The notes under the pieces were generated by a model. That model was given only the letters and a program-made list of their open reading frames with translations, was not told the origin of the DNA and ran no database searches. Below are positions 446 through 40,981 of a DNA stretch of 64,000 nt, piece after piece. Position 1 is the stretch's first letter; each line of letters starts with the position of its first letter. Source of the stretch: Bacteriovoracia bacterium (GTDB taxonomy: Bacteria; Bdellovibrionota; UBA1018; JBFWNL01); the NCBI GenBank assembly GCA_050251055.1, contig JBFWNL010000008.1, forward strand, positions 96,001 through 160,000, in the 5' to 3' direction. Both the position numbers and the translations under genes were made by a program.

Positions 446-808
446 AGGGATTGGCTTCCGCTCTCAGCGCTAAACGCGCTTCGGCTGCAGCCCGGCCTCA
501 GGGCGGGCCCGCAAGCGGGCACCCCCGCCCTTCCGGCTTTCACCGCTCGGCCATCGTGGCCTCACTATCCCTATAGCAAGGTACGAAACGCTACGCGTTT
601 CGGCATTATAAACCCACCATTTCTCAGCCACCGCCCGAGAACTTCTCGTCCAACATTCTCTTATAAAAAGACACAAGCCTCAGAGGGGGCATCCGCGGGC
701 CACGAAGGCGCTGAGCGGTTGAGCCCATGGATGGGCGTCCCCATCTGAGGCTTGTGTCTTTTTATAAGAGAATGTTGGCTGGGAAATTGTGGTGCGGTGG
801 CTGAGAAA
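446..808 (-). mobile_element. tRNA-Val 3'-associated structured fold-back element (putatively non-autonomous)
   Basis: 613-634 is the exact reverse complement of 794-815; 567-577 is that of 817-827; 446-453 directly repeats 822-829; 454-540 aligns ungapped with 38193-38279. The repeats are seen directly; mobility is inference. Confidence 0.65.
650..778. repeat. Perfect 35-bp inverted repeat enclosing a 59-nt GC-rich spacer
   Basis: CCAACATTCTCTTATAAAAAGACACAAGCCTCAGA (650-684) and its exact reverse complement (744-778). Confidence 0.95.
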
Positions 809-883
809 TGGTGGGAGCTATAGGGATTGAACCTATGACCTTGACCGTGTAAAGATCCTGCTCTACCGCTGAGCTAAGCTCCC
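809..883 (-). tRNA. tRNA-Val(TAC)
   Basis: Minus strand GGGAGCTTAGCTCAGCGGTAGAGC...TT TAC AC...GGTTCAATCCCTATAGCTCCCACCA; cloverleaf with encoded CCA. Confidence 0.93.
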
Positions 884-959: not shown

Positions 960-5102
<4,143 letters not shown>

Positions 5103-37894: not shown

Positions 37895-37967
37895 CCCCGT
37901 TTTATACCCCTGAGAGCCCTTGCACTGCCAGGGGTTTTCCGGTAATCATGGGGCTTCGTTAAAAGGT

Positions 37968-38045
37968 GGACCCGTAGCTCAGTTGGATTAGAGCGCCACA
38001 CTACGGATGTGGAGGTCATAGGTTCGAACCCTGTCGGGTCCGCCA
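37968..38045 (+). tRNA. tRNA-Arg(ACG)
   Basis: GGACCCGTAGCTCAG...CCACA CT ACG GA TGTGG...GGTTCGAACCCTGTCGGGTCCGCCA. Confidence 0.95.
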
Positions 38046-38444
38046 TTTCTAAAGTTCCTGTCTTCATTCAAATTCTACAAATAAGTAACTAAGCCCCTGA
38101 GACATCACTACGCGTGCGTAAGCGCACTTTAGAAATGGCGGAGAATACAAAAGGCAAAACGCGAAGCGTTTTGTACCTTACGACAGGGTTCGAAAGGCGG
38201 AAGCCGCCGGGTGCCCGCTTGCGGGCGGCGGCTGAGCCCGGCCTGCAGCCGAAGCGCGAGGAGCGCTGAGAGCGGAAGGCGAACCCTGTCGGGTCCGCCA
38301 TTTCTAAAGTTCCTGTCTTCATTCAAATTCTACAAATAAGTAACTAAGCCCCTGAGACATCACTACGCGTGCGTAAGCGCACTTTAGAAATGGCGGAGAA
38401 TACAAAAGGCAAAACGCGAAGCGTTTTGTACCTTACGACAGGGT
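38025..38444 (+). repeat. Perfect 165-bp direct repeat starting inside tRNA-Arg (period 255 bp)
   Basis: 38025-38189 equals 38280-38444. The copies are separated by a 90-nt GC-rich structured segment. Confidence 0.95.
38046..38444 (+). mobile_element. tRNA-Arg 3'-associated structured fold-back element (same family as 446-808)
   Basis: 38126-38142 is the reverse complement of 38039-38055; 38181-38194 is that of 38023-38036; core 38193-38279 is homologous to 454-540. Mobility is inference. Confidence 0.65.
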
Positions 38445-38470
38445 CGATAAATTGGCAGGTGAGCCAAACA

Positions 38471-40981
38471 TTACCGGGTCCTCACCAAGCGCAGGCCCTG
38501 GATGCCACCTTGGTGGCACTCAGGCACTAACGCTCCCCGGCTAGCTGACCTCAGGTCACGAGCAACGCTAAGCCAACTTCCCCCGCGGTACACACGTTCT
38601 TTGCCGGAGGAAGGCCCCAGAGGGTTGTGGGTGGTGCCCGCGAGCTGCGTATCGCTCAACCCATAGTTCACGTCGTAAAAATCTTGCACCCACTGGTGTA
38701 CGTTTCCATGCATATCTATCAGTCCAAAGCCATTCCTTTTTCCACGATGTAATTCGACCTCATGGGTAATCCGTCCAGAGTTTTCAGAAAACCAAGCGAC
38801 CTCTTTGAGCTTCGTATAAGCGTCGTCATCCTCACCAAAAAAAAAGCTCCCTGGATTCCCTCCACGTGCGGCCCATTCCCATTCCGCTTCAGTGGGCAAA
38901 CGGTATGTAAAGCCATCGTTCGATTTTTTATTGAGATTTCGAATGAATGCCTGGGCCCCATCCCAAGAAACACTGTCAACTGGGTTGTTAGGGCAGATCT
39001 TAAGAACGGGATCAAAAGTATCTGGGCAAAAAGCTTCACCATCGTGGATCGCTCGCACCGTCTCTAATAATCCCGTCCCCCTCATCACACTGTACCATTG
39101 TCGCTGAGTAACGGGGGTAACGCCCATTTCGAAACCATCAACCCTCACCCAGTGCCTCTTTTCGTTTCGATACCGACCGGGCTCCGAATCCGGACTTCCC
39201 ATTTGAAAGGTCCCACCTGGAATCGGAACAAATTCCAGGTCGAGATCGCTTGGCATTTCACGTTGAATCATATCTACTATTTTTCGATAAACATCCGAAA
39301 AAAAGGCTCGGGGGACCGCGTGCGCGTTGACTCTTGACACAAAAGCCTGAAGCTCTGGATAAATGCTCGCTATTTGAATCAAATCTGGAAGGCTAATTCC
39401 AAACTCTGCGGCCGCACGCTTGAGATCCACATCGTTTTCAAAACGATCCGTCAAATAGCGAATGGGCTCAGGATCACCGGAACCCGTACGCTTCACGCCC
39501 GCGTTTTTCATCGCCTCAATAAAACGACGCGAGTCCTCGGTAAACGCGGCCTGGAGCGCGTCATTTCCACGGTAGGTCGAAAAAATCTCGTCCAAGTCCT
39601 CCTGTCTAAAGAGGCTAGTGTTTTTGTCCACATACGCCCGCACTTGATCCGAGCGCCTCTGGATACCTTGGTTGTGGCAGGAGATACAAGAAATCCCGTT
39701 CACAATGACGGCATTCCTCCGCGAAGCATCCTGAACAATCGGAGTCGGAGCTTCATCTATGCGTTGATGGTCCGAAGTCACAAGCATGTAGGCTTGAAGA
39801 CCATTGGGGAGATTCCAGATAATTTCGCCTCCGGCATGCTTAAACTGTCCGGCACCGTCGCCGGGCCCAAGCGGTCGCGAGAACAAATCCGACGCGCCGG
39901 TACTTTCTTTAAAGTCGTAAGACTTCCAATACGCGCCATCTCTGATCTTATGGCGCTCGATCATGCGATTATTTTGCGAAACACCCGAGTCTGTGAAGGC
40001 CGCCCGTAGGACGCGCCTCGATTTGATATCTCTGTCGACATCGATCCCAACCAAATCACGTTCAAGCGCCGTATCCGTATCGGGGATATTTAAGAACTGA
40101 TAATAAAGAGGCGGCCTGGCTGCGGCAAATGCAAACCAATCACCCCTCGTGTAGAAAAGTCCGGTTCCAGTTTGAATTTGAATAAAGCTGACAGCGGAAT
40201 CAAAAGCGTAACCGTAACTCAAATAAGGACTGCTGCCCGCTACCCGATCCCAGACTTGCGCACTCCATCCCAACGCGCCAATATCCACGCGGTAGACCAG
40301 GCGATTGGCATCAATAGCCTGAAGTGGGAAAAGGCTTTCTTGGGAGCTTAGTGAGTTAACCAGCTTTGTGAGAGCATCCCTAAATATATCAAGATCATCA
40401 GCTGAATCACCGGCCGCCGGCAGGTGGGCAAGCGACAGGTAACGAATGTCCCTGCGTTTACGTTCCGGCAACCGCTCTAAGTCCCTTGCGATGGCCCCGA
40501 AAAGATAAGAATAAGACGCCGTACCTGCGTCTTGCAGCACCCGTCCCTTTTCTTCTCCCGCCGTCGACGGGGCACCCGCCTTGATCCAAGCCAAAACGGT
40601 GTCCTTTTCTTTTTGGGTAAGTTTTCGGATTCCGGTCGCCGCAAGCTCATCTTTCGAGAGCTGTCGGACTTTTGGCATTTCATCGCTTTCGATGCGCTGA
40701 TAAAGCGAGGATTGGGCAGGGTCACTTAGATTGATGAAATCTGGGTTGCTCCTAAGTTTTTCAAAATCCAAAACAGAATCGAATCCGCCACGCACTTTTT
40801 TTCCCGGCTCTCCGTGACAGTAAAAACAATTGGCCTTAAAAATCGATTGAACCGAGCGCGCGAGCCTTTCCGCATCGGCATCTTGCGGTAATAGATTGGA
40901 TGCCCACGTCGGCACCGCGACAACGGACACAGAAACGGTCAAAGCAAAAAAGGTAAACGCGGAAAATAGCTTGGAGCGCAT
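38471..40981 (-). CDS. Secreted protein with two c-type heme motifs and a C-terminal FGE-sulfatase/C-type-lectin-fold domain
   Basis: Signal peptide; CFYCH (planctomycete cytochrome c-like) and CISCH; FQMGS, RLPTEAEWE, DMHGNV.QW, RGGSW. Confidence 0.85.
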   Translation of the reverse strand: MRSKLFSAFTFFALTVSVSVVAVPTWASNLLPQDADAERLARSVQSIFKANCFYCHGEPGKKVRGGFDSVLDFEKLRSNPDFINLSDPAQSSLYQRIESDEMPKVRQLSKDELAATGIRKLTQKEKDTVLAWIKAGAPSTAGEEKGRVLQDAGTASYSYLFGAIARDLERLPERKRRDIRYLSLAHLPAAGDSADDLDIFRDALTKLVNSLSSQESLFPLQAIDANRLVYRVDIGALGWSAQVWDRVAGSSPYLSYGYAFDSAVSFIQIQTGTGLFYTRGDWFAFAAARPPLYYQFLNIPDTDTALERDLVGIDVDRDIKSRRVLRAAFTDSGVSQNNRMIERHKIRDGAYWKSYDFKESTGASDLFSRPLGPGDGAGQFKHAGGEIIWNLPNGLQAYMLVTSDHQRIDEAPTPIVQDASRRNAVIVNGISCISCHNQGIQRRSDQVRAYVDKNTSLFRQEDLDEIFSTYRGNDALQAAFTEDSRRFIEAMKNAGVKRTGSGDPEPIRYLTDRFENDVDLKRAAAEFGISLPDLIQIASIYPELQAFVSRVNAHAVPRAFFSDVYRKIVDMIQREMPSDLDLEFVPIPGGTFQMGSPDSEPGRYRNEKRHWVRVDGFEMGVTPVTQRQWYSVMRGTGLLETVRAIHDGEAFCPDTFDPVLKICPNNPVDSVSWDGAQAFIRNLNKKSNDGFTYRLPTEAEWEWAARGGNPGSFFFGEDDDAYTKLKEVAWFSENSGRITHEVELHRGKRNGFGLIDMHGNVHQWVQDFYDVNYGLSDTQLAGTTHNPLGPSSGKERVYRGGSWLSVARDLRSASRGALVPECHQGGIQGLRLVRTR

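What the first reader, a model, noticed from the sequence alone, without database searches (positions are those of the whole stretch)
578..612. Conserved GNA-triloop hairpin with a GTACCTT tail inserted at tRNA position 69 of the antisense copy
Seen: Val locus (minus) CGAAACGC-GTA-GCGTTTCG-TACCTT; Arg locus CAAAACGC-GAA-GCGTTTTG-TACCTT (38155-38179, repeated at 38410-38434). One stem pair covaries (G-C vs A-T) and the loop stays GNA. Established: GC-GNA-GC minihairpins are exceptionally stable in single-stranded DNA. Inference: the signal acts as ssDNA or a cruciform (nick or recognition site) rather than as RNA.
Basis: partly seen in the sequence, partly recalled or inferred. Interest (0 to 1): 0.7.

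Follow-up and report, generated by a model that had tools for sequence, protein, structure and literature searches.

The report
Branch hairpin of tRNA-targeting mini-elements
The hairpin is a real, conserved part of a small gene-less DNA element that sits behind many tRNA genes of predatory (Bdellovibrio-type) bacteria and carries both a copy and a split mirror-copy of the tRNA's tail, probably so that one strand can fold into its own insertion site.

Summary
Observation confirmed. The hairpin plus (G)TACCTT tail lies at window 578-602 (-), 38156-38181 (+) and 38411-38436 (+); 0 matches are expected by chance.

It is module "H" of a 190-430-nt non-coding element behind 9 of the genome's 45 tRNA genes. 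The layout is: tRNA 3' end, long hairpin, antisense arm 1, H, antisense arm 2, a 95-nt structured module B, then a repeat of tRNA positions 56-76.

- **Distribution:** B occurs in 21 of 101 same-order genomes and 23 of 151 phylum genomes.
- **H stem:** 93.6% paired, and all 8 pairs covary.
- **H position:** it splits the antisense copy at tRNA positions 68/69 in 26 of 37 copies.
- **H loop:** a GNA triloop in only 18 of 49 copies. 27 of 49 carry GCGNAGC or GCGNNAGC.

The units stack in arrays with cargo genes and tyrosine integrases. The genome has no HUH, relaxase, RT or IS110 enzyme.

Best reading (about 0.4): H is the branch of a three-way junction in a self-folding single-stranded attachment site, like attC or CTX attP. 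An RNA role is not excluded, and a nick site is unsupported.

The scan has noted analogous tRNA-trailing elements in other phyla. I found no published description.

The parts
809..883 (-). tRNA-Val(UAC) gene. Its 3' part (positions 54-76) is the sense partner of the two antisense arms.
   Evidence: ARAGORN; Rfam tRNA, 62.6 bits.
794..815 (-). Sense strand of helix P0: tRNA-Val positions 70-76 plus 15 nt of trailer.
   Evidence: Pairs perfectly with 613-634 in the ssDNA fold. Arm mapping.
635..793 (-). Interior of the long near-perfect inverted repeat (LH). It holds a conserved apex module (about 684-762, GGGGACGCCCATCCATGGGC...) and a small conserved side hairpin (635-649).
   Evidence: Sequence. 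Fold (-100.5 kcal/mol, z -19). The same apex motif occurs in the Leu-tag, Gln, Leu-cag and Ala copies.
613..634 (-). Arm 1: antisense to tRNA-Val positions 70-76 plus trailer.
   Evidence: score 22, positions 70-91.
603..612 (-). Joiner J1 (TTTATAATGC), unpaired, between arm 1 and H.
   Evidence: J1 is 9-12 nt in most copies.
584..602 (-). Hairpin H of the Val unit (CGAAACGC-GTA-GCGTTTCG): the finding itself.
   Evidence: DNA fold -8.5 kcal/mol, z -4.4. Covariation.
578..583 (-). Tail J2 (TACCTT), conserved and unpaired.
567..577 (-). Arm 2: antisense to tRNA-Val positions 58-68.
   Evidence: score 11, positions 58-68.
541..566 (-). Extra GC-rich hairpin between arm 2 and B. It is specific to a sub-type that also includes L051, L058 and L059.
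446..539 (-). Module B (453-539), followed by an 8-nt remnant of the tRNA repeat (CAATCCCT, tRNA positions 56-63) that closes stem P1.
   Evidence: The CM hit at 439-555 scores 118 bits. Covariation.
37968..38045 (+). tRNA-Arg(ACG) gene.
38039..38143 (+). Helix P0 / long hairpin of Arg unit 1. The sense strand is 38039-38055 (tRNA positions 70-76 plus trailer), followed by the loop region and arm 1 at 38127-38143.
   Evidence: The ssDNA fold gives 17 pairs. Arm mapping.
38144..38155 (+). J1 of Arg unit 1 (GAATACAAAAGG).
38156..38174 (+). Hairpin H of Arg unit 1 (CAAAACGC-GAA-GCGTTTTG).
   Evidence: DNA fold -8.9 kcal/mol, z -4.0.
38175..38181 (+). Tail J2 (TACCTTA).
38182..38195 (+). Arm 2: antisense to tRNA-Arg positions 54-67.
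   Evidence: score 14.
38194..38280 (+). Module B of Arg unit 1.
   Evidence: CM hit of 132.2 bits.
38281..38301 (+). Direct repeat of tRNA-Arg positions 56-76. It forms the 3' strand of stem P1 and is the start of unit 2.
38302..38446 (+). Truncated second tandem unit: trailer, arm 1, J1, H (38411-38429), tail (38430-38436) and 10 nt of arm 2. There is no B.

Best explanation
H is the side branch of a three-way junction inside a small, gene-less, tRNA-targeting integrative unit, called 'M' here.

**What a unit contains**
- A sense copy of the tRNA's 3' part (positions 56-76 plus trailer).
- An antisense copy of it, split at positions 68/69 by J1-H-J2.
- A conserved structured cap (B) that joins arm 2 to the sense T-arm.

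**How it folds.** When the tRNA-sense strand is single-stranded, it folds into a rod. The rod rebuilds the double-stranded tRNA-gene segments 54-67 (P1) and 70 onward (P0). H and two unpaired target bases lie between them.

**Proposed role (inferred).** This folded form is the recombination site used by a tyrosine integrase supplied in cis or in trans. The logic follows integron attC sites and the CTX-phage attP(+) hairpin:
- The two duplex arms are the recombinase half-sites.
- H keeps the complementary strand interrupted at the centre, so only the sense strand is exchanged.
- Replication then completes the insertion.

**Shown here.** The anatomy, its conservation and covariation, the fixed position of H, the tRNA-end repeats, the arrays with cargo and integrase genes, and presence or absence at an orthologous site.

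**Inferred only.** That the folded strand is DNA, that the integrase acts on it, and the role of H in limiting strand exchange.
For: **A family tied to tRNA genes**
- Copies lie behind 9 of 45 tRNA genes in this genome, all on the tRNA strand.
- B is found in 21 of 101 same-order genomes and 23 of 151 phylum genomes, with several copies each.
- 37 of 58 unique copies have a tRNA gene called within 520 nt upstream.

**Structure under selection**
- B: 91.9% of cells are paired, 29 of 33 pairs change on both sides, and slid controls give 36-45%.
- H: 93.6% paired, 8 of 8 pairs covary.
- The whole junction is the minimum-energy ssDNA fold: Arg -42.3 kcal/mol, z -7.6; Val -100.5 kcal/mol, z -19.

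**Fixed geometry**
- Arm 2 ends at tRNA positions 65-68 and arm 1 starts at 68-72 in 26 of 37 copies. The commonest combination is 67/70.
- The same order of parts persists in distant families, although H and tail sequences differ.

**Integrative signature**
- Units are bounded by exact repeats of tRNA positions 56-76 and stack in tandem (Arg and Gln here; L039, L013 and L018 in relatives).
- Cargo lies between units: an ABC/AAA ATPase, and LysR with DUF3892 and DUF4431.
- A tyrosine-integrase gene ends 100-350 nt upstream of the unit on the same strand at 5 of the 76 listed B hits.
- At the orthologous rpoC-tRNA-Val locus, 6 of 15 relatives are empty and none has this unit.

**Points favouring DNA over RNA**
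- There is no excess of G-T over A-C in LH (18 against 22) or in P1 (14 against 16).
- G-T is 1.4-1.9% of pairs, against 5% in the genome's own tRNA stems.
- 27 of 49 H apices are the d(GCGNAGC) or d(GCGNNAGC) mini-hairpin motif (abstract of PMC13037366 in the listing).
- In cis, both arms are occupied by the element's own sense copy. This suits a self-folded site better than a free guide.

**Precedent (recalled; abstracts seen in the listing)**
- Tyrosine recombinases IntI and XerCD recombine folded single strands with a double-stranded partner (PMC4792948, PMC3442271).
Against: - There is no direct evidence that the strand is ever single-stranded DNA, or that an integrase acts on it.
- No excised circle or empty-site read was seen. 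The contigs simply break at the repeat.
- B has a conserved CTTG loop closed by G-C (34 of 63 copies) and G...A loops including GNRA. It also shows a mild G-T excess (22 against 12). All of these would suit an RNA.
- Integrase adjacency (5 of 76 hits) could come from independent elements piling up at the same tRNA hot spot. A short tRNA-end-like motif, CGAATCC(G/A)CCA, separates the integrase from the unit. It also follows integrases that have no unit (L046, L047).
- Six of eight full units in this genome keep only tRNA positions 56 to about 63 of the distal repeat, so they may no longer be mobile. B and P1 remain intact even so, which hints at a function in place.
- No source of single-stranded DNA was identified in this genome.
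Confidence: 0.4

Rival explanations
1. H and B are parts of a non-coding RNA. The RNA would be made by read-through from the tRNA or the integrase gene, or from its own promoter. The arms would act as antisense or guide segments against the tRNA gene or the pre-tRNA, or the structure would regulate the integrase, as in sib-type retroregulation. H would be a protein-binding or stabilising stem-loop of that RNA.
For: - Loops and covariation are strand-specific on the transcribed (tRNA-sense) strand.
- B has a G(CTTG)C loop in 34 of 63 copies, GNRA-like loops, and one pair with 12 G-U.
- The units sit directly behind strongly transcribed genes.
- B and P1 stay intact where the distal repeat is lost.
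- B scaffolds follow the genome rather than the target tRNA. The genome label needs 36 changes on the tree against a shuffled mean of 46; the target label needs 34 against 36.4. This would be expected of a reprogrammable scaffold.
Against: - No RNA run holds the locus.
- No sigma-70-like promoter is found at either window locus.
- No Rfam family matches, even at E up to 10.
- The long hairpin in front of H looks like a terminator in many copies.
- The arms are paired in cis with the element's own sense copy.
- G-U is 3-4 times rarer than in this genome's tRNAs and is not favoured over A-C in LH or P1.
- No RNA-guided recombinase (IS110 type) and no RT is found in the genome.
Confidence: 0.28
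2. H plus its conserved tail is a nick or transfer origin. It would be either an oriT-like site for a conjugative relaxase or an HUH (IS200/IS605, RAYT) hairpin site. That would make the unit a mobilisable mini-element.
For: - A hairpin followed by a conserved tail of about 8 nt resembles the layout of oriT and IS608 ends (layout recalled, not tested).
- One integrase-linked unit (L045) lies 3 kb downstream of a MobA/VirD2 relaxase gene (PF03432, E 1.6e-30).
- The apex is a DNA mini-hairpin motif in 27 of 49 copies.
Against: - The window's genome (93.5% complete) has 10 units but no PF03432 relaxase, no Y1_Tnp and no RVT_1.
- The relaxase occurs in 3 of 21 B-bearing genomes against 10 of 80 others, so it does not co-occur with B.
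- Units are bounded by 21-nt target repeats, which IS200/IS605 elements do not make.
- The tail is replaced by a different sequence in distant families, while H keeps its place.
Confidence: 0.07
3. H is a double-stranded palindromic binding site for a dimeric protein, such as an arm-type or accessory site of the attachment region. It would not be a folded hairpin.
For: - The outer half-sites AAAAC and GTTTT are conserved in sequence, not only in pairing.
- The site lies in the flank of an attachment site, where accessory proteins bind in lambda-type systems (recalled).
Against: - The distance between the conserved outer halves varies from 9 to 15 nt, because stems are 7-12 bp and loops 3-5 nt. 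A dimer on duplex DNA would not tolerate this.
- The loops are strand-asymmetric (G...A).
- The inner stem changes freely but always stays complementary. All 8 pairs covary, in 51 cells.
Confidence: 0.08
4. H is an intrinsic terminator or insulator between the tRNA transcript and the rest of the unit.
For: - H has an A-tract, a stem and a T-tract.
- The simple scan flags the two Arg copies as terminator-like, but on the minus strand.
Against: - The GC part of the stem is only 3-4 bp in most copies.
- On the tRNA strand the stem is followed by GTACC, not by a T run.
- The Val copy is not flagged on either strand.
- A separate, much stronger terminator-like hairpin (LH) already precedes H.
- This reading does not explain why H sits exactly at positions 68/69 of an antisense tRNA copy.
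Confidence: 0.05

Closest known systems
tRNA-gene-targeting tyrosine-integrase islands, their tandem arrays (for example the tycheposons of Prochlorococcus) and integrase-less cis-mobilisable derivatives (CIMEs)
   Same: - Insertion is at the 3' part of tRNA genes, with a repeat of the tRNA end on both sides.
- Units and cargo stack in tandem.
- Integrase genes and their fragments occur in the arrays.
- The tycheposon preprint 10.1101/2020.12.28.424599 describes partial tRNAs, repeated integrations and remnants (passages read).
   Different: - The units here are 190-430 nt, gene-less and highly structured.
- They carry an antisense copy of the target, split by a conserved hairpin, and a covarying 95-nt cap.
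- The word 'hairpin' does not occur in the tycheposon text.
- CIMEs are recalled from memory, not checked in a paper.
Folded single-stranded recombination sites of tyrosine recombinases: integron attC and CTX-phage attP(+)
   Same: - An imperfect intrastrand palindrome rebuilds a duplex recombinase site.
- The central interruption could restrict exchange to one strand.
- Cassette-like arrays of short units with or without cargo lie next to a fixed entry site.
- Abstracts of PMC4792948 and PMC3442271 were seen in the listing. The mechanism itself is recalled.
   Different: - The entry site is a tRNA gene, not attI or dif.
- The duplex mimics the target tRNA gene itself and changes with the target.
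- The interruption is a whole conserved hairpin in a three-way junction, not a few extrahelical bases or a bubble.
- No IntI-type integrase or Xer dependence has been shown.
Mini-hairpin DNA, d(GCGNAGC) / d(GCGNNAGC)
   Same: 27 of 49 H apices carry this exact motif, closed by C-G. The abstract of PMC13037366 describes it as extraordinarily stable (listing).
   Different: 22 of 49 copies do not carry it, and distant families use other loops (TGAA, AGT, CAGT). The motif is therefore frequent but not required.
Hairpin-plus-nick sites of HUH enzymes: oriT of MobA/VirD2-type relaxases, IS200/IS605 ends, and REP/RAYT
   Same: A short hairpin followed by a conserved single-stranded tail, in small non-autonomous interspersed copies.
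   Different: - No HUH enzyme is found in this genome.
- The units carry 21-nt target repeats.
- Association with tRNA genes is strict.
- The hairpin is embedded in an antisense copy of the target.
IS110-family bridge (seek) RNAs
   Same: A conserved scaffold carries short segments complementary to the target, and these segments differ between copies that have near-identical scaffolds.
   Different: - No DEDD (IS110) recombinase is found in the genome.
- Both arms are antisense to the same target strand, are 11-30 nt long and are paired in cis.
- Transcription has not been shown.

Membership tests
tRNA-targeting tyrosine-integrase element / integrase-less derivative (CIME-like) | Flanked by direct repeats of the 3' part of the target tRNA gene. 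| tested here: met
   Exact repeats of tRNA positions 56-76 flank the Arg and Gln units and three units in L039. In 10 other copies the distal repeat keeps only positions 56 to 62-65.
tRNA-targeting tyrosine-integrase element / integrase-less derivative (CIME-like) | A cognate tyrosine integrase in cis (autonomous form) or elsewhere in the genome. | tested here: inconclusive
   PF00589 genes end 100-350 nt upstream of 5 of 76 units. The window's genome has 8 PF00589 hits, none beside a unit. The adjacency could be accretion of separate elements.
tRNA-targeting tyrosine-integrase element / integrase-less derivative (CIME-like) | Excision to a circle and re-integration (mobility). | tested here: inconclusive
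   - Presence or absence at the orthologous rpoC-tRNA-Val site: 6 of 15 relatives are empty.
- Distribution is patchy: 21 of 101 genomes.
- No circle or empty-site joints were seen in contigs of 4 runs.
Integron attC-type folded site | An intrastrand imperfect palindrome that rebuilds duplex recombinase boxes. | tested here: met
   The ssDNA minimum-energy folds give P1 and P0 duplexes equal to tRNA-gene positions 54-67 and 70 onward. LH has 946 Watson-Crick pairs among 1068 aligned.
Integron attC-type folded site | Conserved R''/R' core (RYYYAAC / GTTRRRY), an IntI integrase and an attI platform. | not tested
   No search for IntI or for the core motifs was run. The entry site here is a tRNA gene, so membership is not claimed. 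Only the working principle is compared.
IS200/IS605 or REP-RAYT hairpin elements | A Y1 HUH transposase in the genome. | tested here: not met
   PF01797 has 0 matches in G000, which is 93.5% complete. The control rang in 6 of 14 genomes.
IS200/IS605 or REP-RAYT hairpin elements | Insertion without target duplication. | tested here: not met
   The units carry 21-nt repeats of the tRNA end.
oriT of a MobA/VirD2 relaxase | A cognate relaxase present and co-occurring. | tested here: not met
   PF03432 has 0 matches in G000. It occurs in 3 of 21 B-bearing genomes and in 10 of 80 others. One linked case was found, L045.
Intrinsic terminator | A GC-rich stem followed by a T run on the transcribed strand. 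| tested here: not met
   The scan flags only the minus strand of the Arg copies and nothing at the Val copy. On the tRNA strand the stem is followed by GTACC.
Any Rfam family | A match at or near the gathering score. | tested here: not met
   Only tRNAs reach the gathering score in the window. At E up to 10 over 37900-38500, nothing covers H or B apart from chance-level hits.
IS110 bridge RNA | A DEDD (IS110) recombinase. | tested here: not met
   PF01548 has 0 matches in G000.
Small protein gene | A conserved open frame. | tested here: not met
   ATG occurs in J1 in 21 of 52 copies. The median longest frame from any start there is 9 codons.

The most novel reading that the evidence does not exclude
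These units, and the analogous families the scan has met in other phyla, may be a general and undescribed class of 'self-templated' attachment cassettes. Each would be a single strand that folds to display a duplex copy of its own tRNA target, with a conserved branch hairpin at positions 68/69. Target choice would then be set by nucleic-acid sequence carried in the element, both sense and antisense copies, rather than by the recombinase. That would make a tyrosine integrase retargetable among tRNA genes.
Probability: 0.3. Interest if true: 0.85.

Novelty: new variant of a known kind. Interest (0 to 1): 0.65.

Why it matters
If the folded-strand reading holds, single-strand recombination by tyrosine recombinases would extend beyond integron cassettes and Xer-dependent phages to tRNA genes, the commonest integration sites in prokaryotes.

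It would also explain why small gene-less structured inserts trail tRNA genes in several phyla.

The sense-plus-split-antisense design suggests a site whose specificity is written in the element's own sequence. That is of interest for programmable integration.

For annotation, the practical point is that these 200-400-nt blocks are mobile-element scars or active units, not tRNA pseudogenes or terminators. They also mark places where cargo genes, including defence-like ATPases, are exchanged.

Tried and rejected
- **RNA evidence.** The one run search found only DNA metagenomes holding the locus. The six RNA runs hold 5-9% of the words, and the one that was laid covered only the tRNA.
- **Laying contigs of 4 runs.** This gave no joints, circles or empty sites; the contigs break at the repeat. 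It says nothing either way.
- **Rfam.** No family matched at the gathering score or at E up to 10.
- **Promoter idea.** The TATAAT-like box in J1 is not backed by a -35 element in the simple scan at either window locus. J1 is conserved only as a loose ..TAATG...
- **Small-ORF idea.** Rejected.
- **RT, Y1 HUH and IS110 enzymes.** None is found in the genome.
- **Relaxase co-occurrence.** None.
- **Earlier notes searched by sequence.** No look-alike was found in other windows.
- **Retargeting shown by the B tree.** The tree has only 85 columns and many open forks. Arg and Gln units share B (93%) but differ in H, so exchange of B between resident units explains the pattern as well as retargeting does.
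- **Automatic calls of H and the arms.** They failed or mis-anchored in 9 of 58 and 11 of 37 copies respectively. By eye, about 55 of 58 copies have H. Five mis-called rows were dropped and two were re-cut before alignment A3 was made.
- **Literature.** Five searches found no description of such units: plus for the mini-hairpin motif.
Full report
**1. The observation**

- Minus strand: CGAAACGC-GTA-GCGTTTCG at 584-602, with TACCTT at 578-583.
- Plus strand: CAAAACGC-GAA-GCGTTTTG-TACCTT at 38156-38180 and again at 38411-38435.

The first copy lies 207 nt downstream of tRNA-Val(UAC), on that gene's strand. The other two lie downstream of tRNA-Arg(ACG).

**2. What surrounds it**

Read in the direction of the tRNA, each locus has the same order of parts.
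1. The tRNA 3' end, with encoded CCA, and a trailer.
2. A long, nearly perfect inverted repeat (LH). Its distal strand, arm 1, is antisense to the trailer and to tRNA positions 70-76.
3. A 9-12-nt joiner (J1).
4. The hairpin (H).
5. The tail (J2).
6. Arm 2, antisense to tRNA positions 54-67.
7. A GC-rich module of about 95 nt (B).
8. A direct repeat of the tRNA from position 56.

Folded as one DNA strand, the stretch from tRNA position 54 to arm 2 gives exactly this three-way junction. P1 is arm 2 paired with positions 54-67. P0 is arm 1 paired with position 70 onward. H is the branch, and two target bases are left unpaired.
- Arg: -42.3 kcal/mol, z -7.6.
- Val: -100.5 kcal/mol, z -19.
- H alone: -8.5 and -8.9 kcal/mol, z -4.4 and -4.0.

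**3. It is a family**

In the window's own genome (21 contigs, 93.5% complete), a profile of H plus B finds 11 hits behind 9 of the 45 tRNA genes: Val-tac, Arg-acg (two), His, Asp (two), Leu-tag, Gln-ttg, Leu-cag, Ala-cgc and Lys-ctt. All are on the tRNA's strand. Some are truncated.
- Arg unit 2 and the Leu-tag copy lack all or part of B.
- The Ala copy lacks the 3' half of H.
- The Lys copy keeps only part of B.

A covariance model of arm 2, B and the repeat (R1) finds the module in 21 of 101 same-order genomes. There are 76 listed hits, up to 8 per genome. It also finds the module in 23 of 151 genomes sampled across the phylum, including three other families. Notes from earlier sessions place the genome in the Bacteriovoracia; I did not check that name.

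On 63 aligned copies:
- 91.9% of cells in B pair;
- 29 of 33 pairs change on both sides;
- sliding the partner by 1-3 columns gives 36-45% pairing.

No Rfam family matches, and there is no conserved reading frame.

**4. The hairpin across the family**

Of 58 non-redundant B copies, 49 pass a strict automatic test for H just upstream of arm 2. By eye about 55 have it, and three clearly lack it.

In an alignment of 49 H regions (A3; five mis-called rows dropped and two re-cut):
- the 8-pair stem is 93.6% paired, against 29-54% when slid;
- all 8 pairs show changes on both sides, in 51 cells.

- 20 triloops, of which 18 are GNA.
- 18 tetraloops, of which 10 are GNNA.
- 3 pentaloops.
- 8 copies with three extra pairs and AGT, TGC, GGC or similar triloops.
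- 27 of 49 apices are literally GCGNAGC or GCGNNAGC. The abstract of PMC13037366 describes these as 'mini-hairpin DNA' (listing).

The tail G-T-A-C-C-T-T-A is conserved within the order, and its C39 is invariant in 49 of 49 copies. In the distant families the same slot holds CAGTCAA-like tails, H reads CAAAC...GTTTG with other loops, and the order of parts is unchanged.

**5. Position relative to the tRNA**

For 37 copies with a called tRNA upstream, an ungapped complement search places the end of arm 2 at positions 65-68 and the start of arm 1 at 68-72 in 26 copies. The commonest combination is 67/70, seen 8 times. The other 11 were not resolved by this crude method. 'Inserted at position 69 of the antisense copy' is thus a property of the whole family.

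**6. Evidence that the units are, or were, integrative**

- Units are bounded by repeats of tRNA positions 56-76. In L039 three successive repeats are each followed by different DNA, so identity ends exactly at the CCA.
- Units stack in tandem: Arg and Gln here; L013, L018 and L078 elsewhere.
- Between two units one finds cargo: an ABC/AAA-type ATPase (L040); LysR, DUF3892 and DUF4431 (L038); DUF6973, DUF4160 and an integrase fragment (L039).
- A tyrosine-integrase gene ends 100-350 nt upstream of the unit, on the same strand, at 5 of the 76 hits: G013 twice, G007, G056 and G024.
- At the orthologous rpoC-tRNA-Val(UAC) locus of 15 relatives:
  - 6 have only a terminator or the next gene;
  - 5 carry other structured inserts with their own tRNA-end repeat;
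  - 3 are unclear;
  - 1 is cut by a contig end;
  - none has an R1-type unit.
- The window's genome has 8 PF00589 hits, none beside a unit. It has no RVT_1, Y1_Tnp, IS110 DEDD or MobA/VirD2 relaxase.

**7. Caveats on the integrase link**

Between the integrase stop codon and the unit lies a short motif, CGAATCC(G/A)CCA. It is a T-loop piece joined to the CCA end. The same motif follows related integrases that have no unit (L046 in this genome, L047).

This fits two readings:
- the island and the unit are separate elements stacked at one hot spot; or
- they form one element that can shed the unit by recombination between two tRNA-end copies.

I cannot tell which. One linked island also carries a relaxase, but that enzyme does not co-occur with B: 3 of 21 B-bearing genomes against 10 of 80 others.

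**8. DNA or RNA?**

Pointing to a DNA strand:
- LH is almost pure Watson-Crick: 946 WC, 18 G-T, 22 A-C and 82 other, in 33 copies.
- P1 has 14 G-T against 16 A-C.
- G-T makes up 1.4-1.9% of pairs, against 5.0% (49 of 971) in the stems of this genome's own tRNAs.
- Most H apices are the DNA mini-hairpin motif.
- Both arms are occupied in cis by the element's own sense copy.

Pointing to RNA, or neutral:
- B has G(CTTG)C in 34 of 63 copies, G...A and GNRA loops, and 22 G-T against 12 A-C. Twelve of those G-T come from one pair.
- B and P1 stay intact in copies whose distal repeat is reduced to positions 56 to 62-65. This holds for Val, His, Asp (both copies), Leu-cag and Ala here, and for L009, L012, L032 and L033.
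- No RNA data exist for this organism, and no promoter is predicted.

**9. How it most likely works**

The one feature every copy shares is that a single strand can rebuild the duplex tRNA-gene segment on either side of positions 68/69, with H as a fixed branch and B as a cap. The only enzymes known to use such self-folded sites are tyrosine recombinases, at integron attC and CTX attP(+) (recalled; abstracts seen).

I therefore favour, at about 0.4, a folded single-stranded attachment site. P1 and P0 would act as the half-sites. H would keep the non-exchanged strand interrupted, so that only the sense strand is swapped and replication finishes the job.

The mv4 integrase acts at the 3' end of a tRNA-Ser gene. 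Work on it shows that such enzymes need identity only in a 7-bp overlap and tolerate degenerate flanks (10.1101/2023.11.06.565760, passages read). That makes target switching among tRNAs by change of the element's own sequence plausible.

The B tree fits this. B follows the genome (36 changes against a shuffled mean of 46, minimum 41), not the target tRNA (34 against 36.4, minimum 33). Exchange of B between resident units would give the same picture.

The RNA reading is held at about 0.28. The nick-site, duplex-operator and terminator readings are each below 0.1.

**10. Comparison and novelty**

The units work like miniature integrase-dependent elements and perhaps like attC cassettes. They are not members of the integron, IS200/IS605, REP/RAYT, IS110 or any Rfam family by the features tested.

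Earlier sessions of this scan noted analogous gene-less units in other genomes (e1-1080059, e1-2400499, e1-2516341; e1-845861). They carry sense and antisense copies of tRNA ends, in Patescibacteria, Actinobacteria and an archaeal group. One has a hairpin at the junction of the T stem and the acceptor stem. I did not re-test those.

Literature searches, and passages of the tycheposon preprint, gave no description of such units. Supplementary files could not be seen.

I rate the finding a new variant of a known kind, with interest 0.65.

Noticed in passing
window 684-762 (-); also L003, L004, L005, L006: The apex of the long hairpin carries its own conserved module (GGGGACGCCCATCCATGGGCTYGAC...). 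It occurs in the Val, Leu-tag, Gln (both units), Leu-cag and Ala copies and in several relatives. It resembles the P3 hairpin of B. In the Lys-ctt copy the apex appears fused directly to the middle of B.
   Followed up: partly
window 635-649 (-); L002, L004, L006: A small conserved hairpin (CCGAG-AAGTT-CTCGG type) is inserted in the antisense strand of the long hairpin, opposite an unpaired stretch of the trailer. This is a second 'inserted module' besides H.
   Followed up: no
window 446-453 (-); L001, L002, L005, L006, L009, L012, L032, L033: There are two classes of distal repeat. One is the full tRNA 56-76. In the other, identity to the tRNA stops within positions 62-65 and unrelated DNA follows. 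The tight breakpoint suggests a site-specific event or selection for stem P1 only.
   Followed up: partly
L039 about 4170-4270, L043, L044, L046 (G000:C5), L047: A conserved motif, CGAATCC(G/A)CCA, lies about 100 nt after the stop codon of a clade of tyrosine integrases, with or without a unit behind it. It is a T-loop piece joined to the discriminator and CCA, lacking positions 63-72.
   Followed up: partly
L089, L090, L092, L099, L101, L105 (rpoC-tRNA-Val loci of relatives): The same tRNA-Val site carries other, non-R1 structured inserts with their own tRNA-end repeats. Some contain a CAAAACGC...GCGTTTTG hairpin in a different place. The order therefore holds several scaffold types of tRNA-trailing units.
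   Followed up: no
L078 (G149:C115:8700-10090): In one small genome of a distant family, three neighbouring tRNA genes of the Thr-Gly-Tyr-Thr/Trp cluster are each followed by a unit, about 270-375 nt apart.
   Followed up: no
window 38280-38444: In the two landfill metagenome runs, the contig covering the repeated Arg unit has 2.3-3 times the word depth of the flanks (41.1 against 13.4-17.7 in X1). The array may therefore hold more than the 1.6 units assembled.
   Followed up: no
L045 377-2242 (+), and, 68 tables: Integrases of this clade are often paired with a MobA/VirD2 relaxase gene 2.5-3.5 kb upstream, for example in G001, G015, G097, G046, G099 and G092. That suggests a family of integrative mobilisable elements in this order.
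   Followed up: partly
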